A stretch of DNA of 64,000 nucleotides, taken from a phage. Positions 26,840 through 27,106 of the stretch are shown here, one piece after another (positions within the stretch are counted from its first letter, which is position 1; the number at the start of each line of letters is the position of its first letter). The position numbers and the translations under genes were made by a program. The notes below the pieces were generated by a model that was not told the origin of the DNA, did no database searches, and saw only the letters and a program-made list of their open reading frames with translations. The stretch lies in the NCBI GenBank assembly GCA_012557565.1, contig GCA_012557565.1_3926.1. One strand, 5' to 3'.

Positions 26840-26966
26840 ACAGAAGACCGTTTACAGCAAACAATAAACAATCTATTTCTCTTATAAAGAAAAGGCGAAG
26901 GTTCGAATCCTTCACACGTTACGGCGTGTTGGTGTAATGGAAGCACTTAAGATAAATACGGTCTGG
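26840..26966 (+). repeat. conserved hairpin element, copy 4, with inserted tRNA-like T-arm segment
   Basis: ACAGAAGACCGTTTACAGCAAACA ... ACGGTCTGG; loop contains GAAGG-TTCGAAT-CCTTC followed by ACACG-TTACGG-CGTGT hairpin. Confidence 0.5.
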
Positions 26967-26973
26967 TAATCCT

Positions 26974-27106
26974 CTTTGCAGTGACTTATGGAGCTAATAT
27001 GTCGTCCCATGAGTGCCGATGAGTTTCTTGAGCATGATTCTAGATTAGCTTACTAAGAGACAACTCTACAAACCCTTTAGCAAGGTTTGCGTAGGTTACT
27101 GCAAAG
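26974..27106 (+). ncRNA. candidate structured non-coding RNA (133 nt) closed by a 12-bp terminal helix
   Basis: CTTTGCAGTGAC (26974-26985) pairs with GTTACTGCAAAG (27095-27106, one G-U); internal hairpins; ends 10 nt before tRNA-Lys. Confidence 0.35.

What the first reader, a model, noticed from the sequence alone, without database searches (positions are those of the whole stretch)
26885..27106. Candidate Y-RNA-like structured RNAs: tRNA-like fragment and a 133-nt RNA closed by a 12-bp terminal helix
26974-27106 has its ends paired over 12 bp (CTTTGCAGTGAC with GTTACTGCAAAG, with one G-U pair that is only allowed in RNA) around internal hairpins, and ends 10 nt before tRNA-Lys. Just upstream (26885-26935) a T-arm-like hairpin GAAGG-TTCGAAT-CCTTC and a second hairpin sit inside hairpin-element copy 4 with no complete tRNA around them. 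Long terminal helices plus tRNA-like modules are the hallmarks of bacterial Y RNAs. Together with the adjacent vWA protein this suggests, tentatively, a phage-borne RNA-protein module.
Basis: inference. Interest (0 to 1): 0.6.

Follow-up and report, generated by a model that had tools for sequence, protein, structure and literature searches.

The report
Phage Y-like RNAs beside Ro60-like gene
The flagged stretch of this Felix-O1-type phage holds two real, conserved non-coding RNAs: a tRNA-mimicking "Y-like" RNA and a 133-nt structured RNA. They lie just downstream of a gene whose protein has the fold of the RNA-binding protein Ro60, and the Y-like RNA carries a previously undescribed RNA "handle" found next to this protein family in very diverse phages.

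Summary
26974-27106 folds far better than shuffles (z -4.1), and its 17-bp terminal helix and two inner helices keep pairing through compensatory changes in related phages. The "tRNA-like fragment" is part of a larger RNA (26846-26965). That RNA is a circularly permuted tRNA mimic (anticodon-like hairpin, T arm, closed acceptor stem, D arm) with YrlA architecture.

It is closed by a conserved handle: AAG, a 6-bp stem, UUACAGCAA, then the 3' strand and CUG. Three short RNAs upstream carry the same handle. The neighbouring "vWA protein" (24358-25773) is a DUF2828/DUF7788 protein whose predicted structure matches full-length Ro60. In about 80 distant phage loci, a model of the handle gives 83 hits, all on the protein's strand and next to its gene. 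It also hits Listeria, Staphylococcus and Mycobacterium phages.

So the Ro60/Y-RNA idea is right in outline. However, the true Y-like RNA is "hairpin copy 4". The 133-nt RNA is a lineage-specific structured RNA of unproven role. No Rfam family covers either RNA: the YrlA model finds nothing in the window, and the handle matches the Dictyostelium Class I RNA model only below its threshold. Binding and function are inferred.

The parts
24358..25773 (+). Gene for a 471-aa Ro60-like protein: N-terminal helical-repeat domain plus a vWA domain with an intact MIDAS motif (D279-x-S281-x-S283, T349, D381).
   Evidence: Pfam DUF7788 (6.4e-44) and DUF2828 (1.2e-26), with no TROVE hit even at E<=10. PHROG 850 'RNA-binding protein'. 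AF2 model pLDDT 90.7. The top 13 Foldseek PDB hits are all full-length Ro60, E 1e-7 to 5e-5, TM up to 0.63. MIDAS residues are invariant in 65 homologs.
25882..25911 (+). Promoter-like site (TTGACA, 18-nt spacer, TG, TATAGT) ahead of the first tRNA. It is the likely start of the transcript carrying tRNAs, handle RNAs and the 133-nt RNA.
   Evidence: 11 of 12 consensus matches. The next comparable + strand site is at 27443-27471, and no + strand terminator-like site lies between. This is a consensus match only.
26112..26174 (+). Handle RNA copy 1 (short form): AAG, GACCAA stem, UUACAGCAA, AU-rich loop, UUGGUC, UG.
   Evidence: Strict scan. Model R2 scores 45.5 bits, E 2.4e-6. Rfam RF01414 scores 23.4 bits, below its gathering score.
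26275..26336 (+). Handle RNA copy 2 (short form).
   Evidence: Strict scan. R2 54.1 bits. RF01414 24.9 bits.
26758..26825 (+). Handle RNA copy 3 (short form; motif AUACAGCAA).
   Evidence: Strict scan. R2 48.2 bits. Conserved in all 30 relatives.
26846..26965 (+). YrlA-like RNA, i.e. handle copy 4 carrying a permuted tRNA-like domain. Closing stem 26846-26851 / 26958-26963; motif UUUACAGCAA 26851-26860; helix ATCT/AGAT 26871-26874 / 26950-26953.
   Evidence: R2 40.9 bits. Named structure 96.5% paired against 42-52% in slid controls. RF02553 YrlA gives no hit even on a 278-nt search.
26876..26892 (+). 5-bp stem with a 7-nt loop (UUUCU-CUUAUAA-AGAAA), placed where a tRNA anticodon arm or the YrlA 'V' arm would sit. 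Its loop is hypervariable between near-identical phages.
   Evidence: The Rfam tRNA model aligns it as the anticodon arm. Loop variants are CUGGUAA, CUCAAAA, CUAUGAA, C(C)GGUAA and ACUUUCA.
26897..26913 (+). T arm (GAAGG-UUCGAAU-CCUUC).
   Evidence: The stem is invariant in 15 distinct relatives (the loop varies at one position) and 100% paired. The T-loop follows the tRNA consensus.
26914..26929 (+). Closed acceptor-like stem (AS) between the T and D arms.
   Evidence: Three pairs change on both sides: ACACG/CGUGU, ACUCGGC/GUCGAGU and ACCCUUC/GAAGGGU. The helix is 99% paired.
26932..26946 (+). D arm (GUGU-AAUGGAA-GCAC), preceded by U8/G9 equivalents at 26930-26931.
   Evidence: The stem is invariant in relatives and the loop varies at one position. 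The same D arm occurs in an unrelated phage locus, L095 1608-1624.
26974..27106 (+). 133-nt structured RNA. P1 is 26974-26990 / 27090-27106 (17 bp). P3 is 27023-27029 / 27055-27061 and encloses the conserved apical hairpin GAUUCUAGAUU (27036-27046). The 5' domain 26991-27022 is unresolved.
   Evidence: z -4.13. Covariation. Model R1 finds it only here: 149 bits, with the next hits at or below 21 bits.
27069..27089 (+). P4 hairpin of the 133-nt RNA: CAAACC-CUUUAGCAA-GGUUUG. It looks like a minimal handle: a stem with the motif as its loop.
   Evidence: The stem covaries, A:U to G:C at 27071/27087. Felix-type relatives read AGACC-UUAAGCAA-GUCUGG, close to that phage's own handle AGACCG-UUUACAGCAA...CGGUCUGG. 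It lacks the C of CAGCAA and the CUG, so its handle status is inferred.
27117..27192 (+). tRNA-Lys(UUU). Its RNase P site would set the 3' side of the 133-nt RNA.
   Evidence: ARAGORN and Rfam 54.2 bits. The processing step is inferred.

Best explanation
The flagged stretch contains two separate non-coding RNAs. They are probably co-transcribed with tRNAs, from a promoter-like site about 1 kb upstream, about 1.1 kb downstream of a Ro60-like protein gene on the same strand.

RNA 1 (26846-26965) works like a bacterial YrlA Y RNA. Its handle is a 6-bp terminal stem opened by an invariant G, a single-stranded UUACAGCAA next to the 5' strand, and a 3' CUG. The handle is the proposed docking site for the Ro60-like protein. 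Its cargo is a circularly permuted tRNA mimic that presents a tRNA elbow (T and D loops), a closed acceptor stem and an anticodon-like hairpin. The three short RNAs upstream are cargo-less versions, like YrlB.

By analogy with Rsr-YrlA-PNPase and with Thermus phage phiLo Ro60-Yrl-PNPase, the RNP would tether or decoy host tRNA- or RNA-processing enzymes during infection. The ortholog in phage Bas63 is reported to counter the ppl defence system.

RNA 2 (26974-27106) is a lineage-specific stable RNA. RNase P cleavage at tRNA-Lys would release it, and its 17-bp terminal helix would shield its ends. Its P4 hairpin may be a minimal handle, making it a fifth ligand of the same protein.

Shown here: the structures, their conservation and covariation, the protein fold, and the RNA-gene co-occurrence. 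Inferred: protein-RNA binding, processing, and any cellular role.
For: Protein. It has a Ro60 fold with an intact MIDAS motif.

RNA 1. It shows the V-T-AS-D order defined for YrlA, with T-arm and D-arm stems that do not vary and a covarying AS helix.

Same architecture elsewhere. It recurs with unrelated sequence next to homologous genes: L084, L089, L094 and L095. In L095 the Rfam YrlA model hits the tRNA-like core at 32.9 bits, E 3.5e-5.

Handle, strict scan. It gives 70 hits on the protein's strand, 0 on the other strand and 0 in shuffles.

Handle, motif-only scan. It gives 104 hits on the + strand against 12 on the - strand. A pairing partner plus UG follows in 62 of the 104 and in 0 of the 12, against 7/116 for shuffled stems. 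The 62 carry 39 distinct stems. An A not required by the scan precedes the G in 59/62.

Handle, covariance model. R2 gives 83 hits at E<=1, all on the + strand and beside the gene, and only the four copies within the 64-kb window. It also hits Listeria, Staphylococcus and Mycobacterium phages at the gene's edge.

Autoregulation hint. Minimal handles sit just before the gene's RBS in several loci.

Precedents. Chen 2014 (PMC4201824); phiLo Ro60 binds adjacent Yrl RNAs and host PNPase (PMC12135203); Bas63 gp130 is Ro60-like, lies upstream of the tRNAs and counters ppl (PMC11482910).

RNA 2.
Against: No binding, expression or processing data exist for this phage.

The protein is not a TROVE family member by sequence, and identity to solved Ro60 structures is only 12-16%.

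The YrlA hallmark GNCGAAN0-1G is absent, and RF02553 does not hit the window's RNA.

Handle detection fails in many loci. By my count, about 33 of 75 distant loci have a hit at E<0.01, and the Campylobacter phage locus has none.

The 133-nt RNA lacks a canonical handle, is confined to Ounavirinae, and its covariation rests on about three lineages.

The strict scan selected for pairing, so the 100% pairing is partly circular.
Confidence: 0.65

Rival explanations
1. The 133-nt element is only a structured processing spacer. Its long helix would be an RNase III or exonuclease-stop site that separates the Y-like RNAs from tRNA-Lys, and it would have no function in trans and no link to the Ro60-like protein.
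For: It lies between two processed RNAs, 10 nt from a tRNA. A 17-bp helix is long enough for RNase III (general knowledge). It has no canonical handle and no homolog outside Ounavirinae. Its 5' domain differs almost completely between types A and B.
Against: Inner helices P3 and P4 and the apical GAUUCUAGAUU are kept across types that have diverged elsewhere. A mere cleavage site would not need that. P4 resembles the phage's own handle.
Confidence: 0.25
2. The permuted tRNA-like RNAs are precursors of real tRNAs. The handle would be excised, the ends joined by an RNA ligase such as RtcB, and the acceptor loop opened by RNase P and 3' trimming. This would yield a tRNA whose anticodon is the hypervariable loop, as with the permuted tRNA genes of the red alga Cyanidioschyzon (from memory).
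For: All four tRNA arms are present. The hairpin before the T arm has a 5-bp stem, a 7-nt C-U-NNN-A-A loop and a 4-nt variable loop. Several relatives encode N-CCA straight after the 3' acceptor strand. An RtcB-type ligase gene lies near the DUF2828 gene in Listeria phage LMTA-57.
Against: The window's own AS loop has no CCA, and its 7-bp stem would leave a 2-nt loop. No ligase gene was looked for or seen in this window. Most handle RNAs carry no tRNA-like cargo at all. [quoted passage not shown]
Confidence: 0.06
3. The tRNA-like piece is a decayed tRNA pseudogene that landed inside a repeated hairpin, and the repeats are selfish or structural DNA elements with no RNA function.
For: The four copies share nearly identical ends. 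tRNA arrays often accumulate debris (general knowledge).
Against: The T-arm and D-arm stems do not vary and the AS helix covaries. The same permuted order recurs with unrelated sequences in other phages. The elements are strand-specific and tied to one protein family across phyla.
Confidence: 0.03
4. The region encodes small proteins, as some deposited annotations suggest.
For: Hypothetical CDSs are called over it in ESh19 (minus strand) and pEC-M719-6WT.1 (plus strand).
Against: The calls disagree in strand and frame. Only ORFs of 32-49 aa overlap the region. Relatives differ by 1-5-nt indels and by compensatory base-pair changes.
Confidence: 0.01

Closest known systems
Bacterial YrlA / YrlB Y RNAs with Rsr (Ro60) (Chen et al. 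2014, PMC4201824; Rfam RF02553)
   Same: The RNAs are encoded within 4 kb of a Ro60-type gene, on the same strand and in multiple copies. One copy carries a tRNA-like domain ordered V, T, closed acceptor-like stem, D, enclosed by the 5'/3' stem. The other copies are short. In some relatives the acceptor loop encodes CCA, recalling M. smegmatis YrlA, which is cut by RNase P and gains CCA.
   Different: The protein belongs to DUF2828/DUF7788, not Pfam TROVE. The proposed binding module is G-stem plus UUACAGCAA plus CUG, not GNCGAAN0-1G. RF02553 does not detect the window's RNA. The RNAs are embedded in a tRNA array.
Thermus phage phiLo Ro60 with Yrl1/Yrl2 (PMC12135203; PDB 9KOP, 9L5Y)
   Same: A phage-encoded Ro60-fold protein with adjacent Y-like RNAs. 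The solved structures are among the top fold matches. An anti-defence role has been proposed.
   Different: phiLo Ro60 is a TROVE-domain protein, and its RNAs carry the CGAA motif in a stem-bulge-stem. Binding and a PNPase complex were shown experimentally there. Nothing has been shown here.
Dictyostelium Class I RNAs (Rfam RF01414; Kjellin et al. 2021, PMC7919456)
   Same: A 5' AAG; a 6-bp terminal stem of variable sequence opened by an invariant G that pairs with the C of a 3' CUG(U); the motif (C)UUACAGCAA immediately after the 5' strand; an AU-rich variable loop; a length of about 60 nt. RF01414 is the best non-tRNA Rfam match to the short forms, at 21-29 bits.
   Different: All scores are below the gathering score of 41.5. 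The spacing between stem and CAGCAA is one nt shorter. Class I RNAs are Pol III-type genes with a DUSE promoter in an amoeba, and their one shown direct binder is the RRM protein Rnp1A. Whether the likeness is homology or convergence is untested.
Metazoan Y RNAs with Ro60
   Same: Small RNAs whose paired 5' and 3' ends form the protein-binding module, with a variable effector loop. The protein is a HEAT-repeat ring plus a vWA domain.
   Different: There is no GGUCCGA bulged helix. The genes are not Pol III genes. The stems are much shorter (6 bp).
T4 stable RNAs C and D ('species 1 and 2' RNAs of the T4 tRNA cluster; from memory, not checked here)
   Same: Stable RNAs of about 120-140 nt and unknown function, encoded among phage tRNA genes and released by tRNA-processing enzymes. 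This is the nearest analogy for the 133-nt RNA.
   Different: No link to a Ro60-like protein is known to me.

Membership tests
YrlA (Rfam RF02553; Chen 2014) | Encoded within about 4 kb of a Ro60 ortholog, on the same strand | tested here: met
   The RNA at 26846-26965 is 1.07 kb downstream of 24358-25773 on the same strand. The protein has a Ro60 fold but is not a TROVE-family member by sequence.
YrlA (Rfam RF02553; Chen 2014) | T and D stem-loops with tRNA-like conserved nucleotides, separated by an AS stem-loop, with a V stem-loop upstream of T | tested here: met
   V 26876-26892, T 26897-26913, AS 26914-26929, D 26932-26946. The T and D stems do not vary and AS covaries.
YrlA (Rfam RF02553; Chen 2014) | GNCGAAN0-1G motif near the 5' end (the proposed Rsr contact) | tested here: not met
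   The 5' part reads CAGAAGACCGUUUACAGCAAAC. The only CGAA is in the T loop.
YrlA (Rfam RF02553; Chen 2014) | Reaches the Rfam gathering score (69 bits) | tested here: not met
   No RF02553 hit on the window's element at E<=10, even in a 278-nt search. The analogous RNA in L095 scores 32.9 bits.
YrlA (Rfam RF02553; Chen 2014) | Bound by the Ro60 protein in vivo; carries tRNA modifications | not testable with these tools
   Needs immunoprecipitation and modification mapping.
Ro60 / TROVE protein family | HEAT-repeat ring plus a C-terminal vWA domain with MIDAS | tested here: met
   AF2 model pLDDT 90.7. The 13 best PDB matches are full-length Ro60. DxSxS, T and D are invariant.
Ro60 / TROVE protein family | Matches the Pfam TROVE model (PF05731) or PDB Ro60 sequences | tested here: not met
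   Pfam gives only DUF2828 and DUF7788 at E<=10. A profile against PDB sequences gives TROVE chains at E 2.2, which is not significant.
Dictyostelium Class I RNA (Rfam RF01414) | Short terminal stem with an invariant 5' G paired to the C of a 3' CUGU; 5' AAG; the roughly 11-nt motif CCUUACAGCAA beside the 5' strand; about 42-65 nt | tested here: met
   Window copies 1-3 read AGAAG-ACCNN-(U/A)UACAGCAA...GGUC-UGGU and are 63-68 nt. Across phages, A precedes the G in 59/62, CAGCAA and CUG are fixed, and U or A follows. The features are as described in PMC7919456.
Dictyostelium Class I RNA (Rfam RF01414) | Reaches the Rfam gathering score (41.5 bits) | tested here: not met
   Scores are 24.9, 23.4 and 21.2 bits in the window and 29.1 bits at best, in L095.
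Dictyostelium Class I RNA (Rfam RF01414) | DUSE promoter about 60 nt upstream; dictyostelid host; binds Rnp1A | not tested
   Not applicable to a phage operon. This is a resemblance of the RNA module only.
Canonical (metazoan / Deinococcus) Y RNA | Long 5'/3' stem containing the conserved bulged helix with GGUCCGA | tested here: not met
   Neither RNA contains it. Rfam reports no Y RNA family hit on either RNA.
tRNA | Contiguous cloverleaf with open acceptor ends | tested here: not met
   ARAGORN makes no call. The 30.9-bit Rfam hit (gathering score 29) aligns only the anticodon-like and T arms, with 4 non-standard pairs in the 'acceptor'. The arm order is permuted.

The most novel reading that the evidence does not exclude
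The handle (AAG, G-opened 6-bp stem, UUACAGCAA, ... C-UG-U) may be the same RNA module as in Dictyostelium Class I RNAs. If so, DUF2828-type Ro60 paralogs plus Class-I-like RNAs would form an old ribonucleoprotein shared by phages of many bacterial phyla and probably by eukaryotes. Plants carry DUF2828 proteins, and mimivirus-like sequences do too.

Under that reading, Class I RNAs, which are described as unique to dictyostelids and of unknown mechanism, would be Y-RNA equivalents. The uncharacterised pull-down protein DDB_G0281243 would be the prime candidate for their Ro60-like partner. The Arabidopsis candidate ath_can_1 was dismissed in that study; it scores 40 bits and reads GUUUUC-AUUACAGCAA...GAAAAC-UG. 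It would deserve a second look.
Probability: 0.3. Interest if true: 0.9.

Novelty: new variant of a known kind. Interest (0 to 1): 0.78.

Why it matters
Ro60-fold proteins of the DUF2828 type are encoded in at least 705 deposited phage genomes, from enterobacterial to Listeria, Staphylococcus, Campylobacter, Vibrio and mycobacterial phages. Their RNA partners have not been identified. For the Felixounavirus Bas63, the only statement found was a guess that "some tRNA genes are possibly Y RNAs".

This analysis gives concrete, testable RNAs and a simple conserved binding-module candidate. It shows that the cargo is often a tRNA mimic, in either permuted or normal topology. It also links the RNAs to a protein reported to counter a bacterial defence system.

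That makes several questions directly testable:
- What does the RNP bind?
- Do the tRNA mimics decoy anticodon nucleases or recruit PNPase or RNase P?
- Is the gene autoregulated through a handle in its own leader?

The unexpected likeness to Dictyostelium Class I RNAs offers a new hypothesis for a 20-year-old orphan RNA class.

Tried and rejected
- **Rfam at permissive thresholds.** Searches on 5.7 kb, 1 kb and 278 nt found nothing for the 133-nt RNA. A weak YrlA hit at 30102-30226 (21.5 bits) only overlaps two ordinary tRNAs.
- **Single-sequence structure prediction.** For the protein it was useless (pLDDT 40.5). The alignment-based run was used instead.
- **PDB searches by sequence.** Sequence and profile searches gave no significant match.
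- **AlphaFold-database fold search.** The library was unavailable, so eukaryotic homologs could not be listed.
- **Identity of DDB_G0281243.** It could not be established: no sequence was available, the original paper is not held, and the supplements say nothing.
- **Ribozyme idea.** A hammerhead-like CCGAUGAG in type A lacks the essential U and the GAAA, is absent from type B, and Rfam ribozyme models do not hit.
- **The 133-nt RNA as a diverged handle RNA.** Its 5' UUUGCAGUGA resembles the motif, but it is base-paired in P1 and changes with its partner, so this was rejected.
- **MFE fold of the window sequence.** It places 27055-27058 in a local hairpin. Covariation favours the long-range P3 helix instead.
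- **MAFFT alignment of P1.** It misplaces one gap between types A and B, so columns 7-9 were left unpaired rather than counted wrongly.
- **Sub-threshold RF01414 scores.** On their own they are at the level of the noise candidates listed for other eukaryotes in Kjellin's supplement. The resemblance is therefore argued from shared features and small search space, not from membership.
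Full report
**Context.** The window is a Felix-O1-type myovirus of the subfamily Ounavirinae. The 501 bases around the finding are 99.6% identical to Shigella phage Henu11, and the 152 bases over the 133-nt RNA are 100% identical to ESh19 (genus Mooglevirus) and 99.3% to Henu11. The finding lies inside a + strand array of 25 tRNA genes (25939-31167). Promoter-like sites sit at 25792-25820 and 25882-25911, the next strong one is at 27443-27471, and no + strand terminator-like site lies between them. The RNAs discussed here would therefore be made as part of a tRNA precursor. 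That is inference.

**Observation check, 133-nt RNA.** The RNA folds at -43.4 kcal/mol against -29.0 +/- 3.5 for shuffles (z -4.13, 0/200). The opposite strand gives z -2.38.

I anchored on the neighbouring tRNA-Lys, not on the element itself, and pulled 26 related contigs from IMG/VR plus annotated relatives. Three types of the element exist:
- Type A: Mooglevirus/Suspvirus-like relatives.
- Type A': some Felixounavirus relatives.
- Type B: most Felixounavirus relatives.

Types A and B differ almost completely in the 5' half, yet three features are kept. P1 is kept through GCAGUGAC/GUUACUGC to GUAGAUAAG/CUUAUCUAC. The 3' hairpin P4 is kept through AAACC/GGUUU to AGACC/GGUCU. The apical GAUUCUAGAUU is retained.

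On the named pairs, 98% of cells pair, four pairs change on both sides, and slid controls give 24-46%. Within type A, a 7-bp helix (27023-27029 / 27055-27061) has three covarying pairs. This overrides the local hairpin of the single-sequence MFE fold. The changes trace to about three lineages, so the number of independent events is small.

Only ORFs of 32-49 aa overlap the region, deposited gene calls disagree in strand, and relatives differ by short indels. This is RNA, not coding sequence.

**Observation check, tRNA-like piece.** The T-arm-like hairpin (26897-26913) and the next hairpin (26914-26929) exist as described. They are followed by U-G and a canonical D arm, GUGU-AAUGGAA-GCAC (26932-26946). 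They are preceded by a 5-bp/7-nt-loop hairpin (26876-26892) and a 4-nt linker.

The order is therefore anticodon-like (or V) arm, T arm, acceptor stem closed by a loop, D arm. That is a circularly permuted tRNA.

In 15 distinct relatives the T and D stems never vary. The acceptor-like stem takes three forms: ACACG/CGUGU, ACUCGGC/GUCGAGU and ACCCUUC/GAAGGGU. Three pairs change on both sides, and the whole structure is 96.5% paired against 42-52% in slid controls.

This is the layout Chen et al. defined for YrlA: nearly invariant T and D stem-loops, a variable AS stem between them, a V stem-loop upstream, and the 5'/3' stem as the Ro60-binding module (PMC4201824).

**The neighbouring protein.** The "vWA protein" is ORF 24358-25773 (471 aa), on the same strand, ending 165 nt before the first tRNA.
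- Pfam sees DUF2828 and DUF7788 only. PHROGs calls it "RNA-binding protein".
- With an alignment of 65 homologs, AlphaFold2 gives pLDDT 90.7 and pTM 0.90.
- The 13 best Foldseek matches in the PDB are all full-length Ro60. They include Xenopus and human Ro60, Deinococcus Rsr and Thermus phage phiLo Ro60 (E 1e-7 to 5e-5, TM up to 0.63, 12-16% identity). Isolated vWA domains follow.
- The MIDAS residues are invariant.

It is thus a Ro60-fold protein that fails sequence-level TROVE membership. tblastn finds the family in 705 deposited phage genomes of many host phyla. Some mycobacteriophage copies are already labelled "Ro-like RNA binding protein".

A preprint on the Felixounavirus Bas63 noted that its gp130 is Ro60-like and sits directly upstream of the tRNAs. 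It reported that gp130 counters the ppl defence system, and it guessed that some "tRNAs" might be Y RNAs (PMC11482910; taxonomy). That gp130 is the ortholog of this gene is my inference from position and genus. No paper in the library identifies the RNAs.

**The handle.** All four "hairpin elements" of the window (26112-26174, 26275-26336, 26758-26825, 26846-26965) share four features in order: AGAAG-ACC(NN), then (U/A)UACAGCAA, then a variable interior, then (NN)GGUC-UGGU.

I fetched 80 loci encoding relatives of the protein, 75 of them only 38-46% identical.
- A strict scan required G plus 5 nt, 3 nt, CAGCAA, and a perfectly pairing 6-mer followed by UG. It found 70 elements on the protein's strand, none on the other strand and none in shuffled loci. 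A handful lie inside the coding sequence and are false.
- A scan for the motif alone gave 104 hits on the + strand against 12 on the - strand. A partner was found for 62 of the 104 and for none of the 12, against 7 of 116 with shuffled stems.
- The 62 carry 39 different stem sequences. An A that the scan did not require precedes the G in 59 of 62.
- On an alignment of 33 short elements, five of six stem pairs covary with three to five pair types each. The 100% pairing there follows from the selection.
- A covariance model of these (R2) gave 83 hits at E<=1, every one on the protein's strand and mostly within a few hundred bases of the gene. In the 64-kb window it hit only the four copies.
- The same model finds three copies just upstream of the DUF2828 gene of Listeria phage LMTA-57. 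It finds three just downstream of the gene in a Staphylococcus phage. It finds one or two in the unannotated gap after the "Ro-like" gene of Mycobacterium phage Loadrie. It finds none in a Campylobacter phage.
- In one contig (L095), a promoter-like site is followed by six such RNAs in tandem and then the RBS of the protein gene.
- In several loci, a minimal hairpin of stem plus motif sits 5-15 nt before the RBS, which suggests autoregulation.

**Cargo.** Short forms (about 55-70 nt) have only an AU-rich loop. Long forms carry inserts.
- Permuted tRNA mimics like the window's occur in L084 (two), L089, L094 (three) and L095 (two). Several encode N-CCA immediately after the 3' acceptor strand.
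- Non-permuted tRNA-like inserts occur in which the handle stem takes the acceptor position (L058, L094). Rfam scores these as tRNA at 53-55 bits.
- Larger domains of unknown type also occur.
- In L095 the Rfam YrlA model hits the T-AS-D core at 32.9 bits, E 3.5e-5. In the window it does not hit, even on 278 nt.

Chen et al. noted both topologies among Y RNAs, comparing YrlA with Deinococcus Yrn1.

**What the 133-nt RNA is.** It has no tRNA-like module and no handle at its ends, and no Rfam family matches it. A model built from its three types finds nothing in 75 other loci.

Its P4 hairpin is the one link to the family. In Felix-type phages it reads AGACC-UUAAGCAA-GUCUGG. That is the phage's own handle (AGACCG-UUUACAGCAA...CGGUCUGG) with the interior deleted and one C missing. 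In the window it is AAACC-CUUUAGCAA-GGUUUG, with the stem change compensated.

Minimal handles do exist elsewhere, so P4 may bind the same protein. I put that at about 40%. Otherwise the RNA is best compared with the stable RNAs of unknown function in the T4 tRNA cluster (from memory), or it is a structured processing spacer.

**Mechanism.**
- Shown by computation: the RNA structures and their conservation; the Ro60 fold; and strand-specific, gene-adjacent co-occurrence of handle RNAs with this protein family across phyla.
- Inferred: the protein docks on the handle; the cargo presents tRNA-like surfaces to host enzymes; and the RNP acts in RNA turnover or anti-defence. The analogies are Rsr-YrlA-PNPase, phiLo Ro60-Yrl-PNPase (PMC12135203) and Bas63 gp130.
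- Also inferred: RNase P at tRNA-Lys and a cut after the Y-like RNA would release the 133-nt RNA, and P1 would protect its ends.

**Comparison with Dictyostelium Class I RNAs.** Rfam's only recurring non-tRNA match to the short handles is RF01414, at 21-29 bits against a gathering score of 41.5.

The published description lists a 5' AAG, a 6-bp stem of variable sequence, an invariant 5' G pairing with the C of a 3' CUGU, an 11-nt motif CCUUACAGCAA beside the 5' strand, and a length of about 60 nt (PMC7919456). The phage consensus matches this almost feature for feature, with one nucleotide less between stem and CAGCAA.

A 29-bit hit in an 800-nt search has E 0.003 over 4227 families, so the pattern match is not chance. 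Similar raw scores do appear as noise in whole eukaryotic genomes, and membership is not met. The likeness could be homology or convergence.

The Class I pull-down contained an uncharacterised protein, DDB_G0281243 (bioRxiv 10.1101/2020.04.05.026054), which I could not examine. DUF2828 proteins occur in plants and in mimivirus-like sequences. No paper in the library connects Class I RNAs with Ro60 or Y RNAs.

**Verdict.** The system is a new variant of the Ro60/Y-RNA theme, with a distinct protein family and a distinct, widely conserved RNA handle that Rfam 15 does not contain.

Noticed in passing
window 26881-26887 (loop of hairpin 26876-26892): The 7-nt anticodon-like loop is hypervariable among otherwise near-identical phages. 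It reads CUUAUAA here, CUGGUAA in ESh19, and CUCAAAA, CUAUGAA, C(C)GGUAA or ACUUUCA elsewhere, while the flanking arms are fixed. It looks like a specificity determinant under diversifying selection.
   Followed up: partly
L084 5793-5915 and 8482-8604; L094 5684-5808 and 5818-5944; Moogle-type relatives L011/L013/L029: The loop that closes the acceptor-like stem encodes discriminator plus CCA directly after the 3' acceptor strand. This suggests RNase P and 3' processing open these mimics into CCA-ended molecules, as reported for M. smegmatis YrlA. The window's own copy has no CCA.
   Followed up: partly
L058 3732-3831; L094 6518-6613: Some handles enclose a non-permuted tRNA-like insert (Rfam tRNA 52.9 and 55.2 bits). 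The handle stem stands in for the acceptor stem, and the UUNCAGCAA motif is inserted before the D arm.
   Followed up: partly
L038 about 3955-3990, L039 about 1765-1800, L040, L049, L061, L104, L105 (just before the protein start): Minimal handle hairpins (stem plus motif as loop, then CUG) lie 5-15 nt upstream of the RBS of the Ro60-like gene. This hints at translational autoregulation.
   Followed up: no
window 26700-26750: Two conserved hairpins lie between tRNA-Asp and handle copy 3: GAGGGCU...AGCCCCUC and UUAAAGAGU...AUUCUUUAA. The second has a compensatory A:U to G:C change in relatives. Their function is unknown.
   Followed up: no
window 26498-26582: A tRNA-Tyr(GUA) with a long variable arm is missed by ARAGORN and scores only 22.8 bits in Rfam. 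It is annotated as tRNA-Tyr in phage JLBYU32. A further tRNA-like stretch (about 27950-28030, possible CCA anticodon) is also uncalled.
   Followed up: partly
L115 (Listeria phage LMTA-57) 1422-1973, and CDS 5802-7013: A ROOL-RNA-like region (88.5 bits, E 9e-17, just under the gathering score) lies about 1 kb upstream of the DUF2828 gene. An RtcB-type tRNA-splicing ligase gene lies about 1.3 kb downstream. This echoes the bacterial rsr-yrlBA-rtcBA arrangement.
   Followed up: no
Supplementary file 7 of bioRxiv 10.1101/2020.04.05.026054: An Arabidopsis candidate that the Class I RNA study dismissed (ath_can_1, CM score 40) reads GUUUUC-AUUACAGCAA...GAAAAC-UG, a perfect handle. Plants encode DUF2828 proteins.
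   Followed up: no
window 27193-27273: The spacer after tRNA-Lys has complementary ends (GCCCCUU ... AAGGGGC). It is present in only some relatives, while others go almost straight to tRNA-Met. It may be another small structured insert.
   Followed up: no
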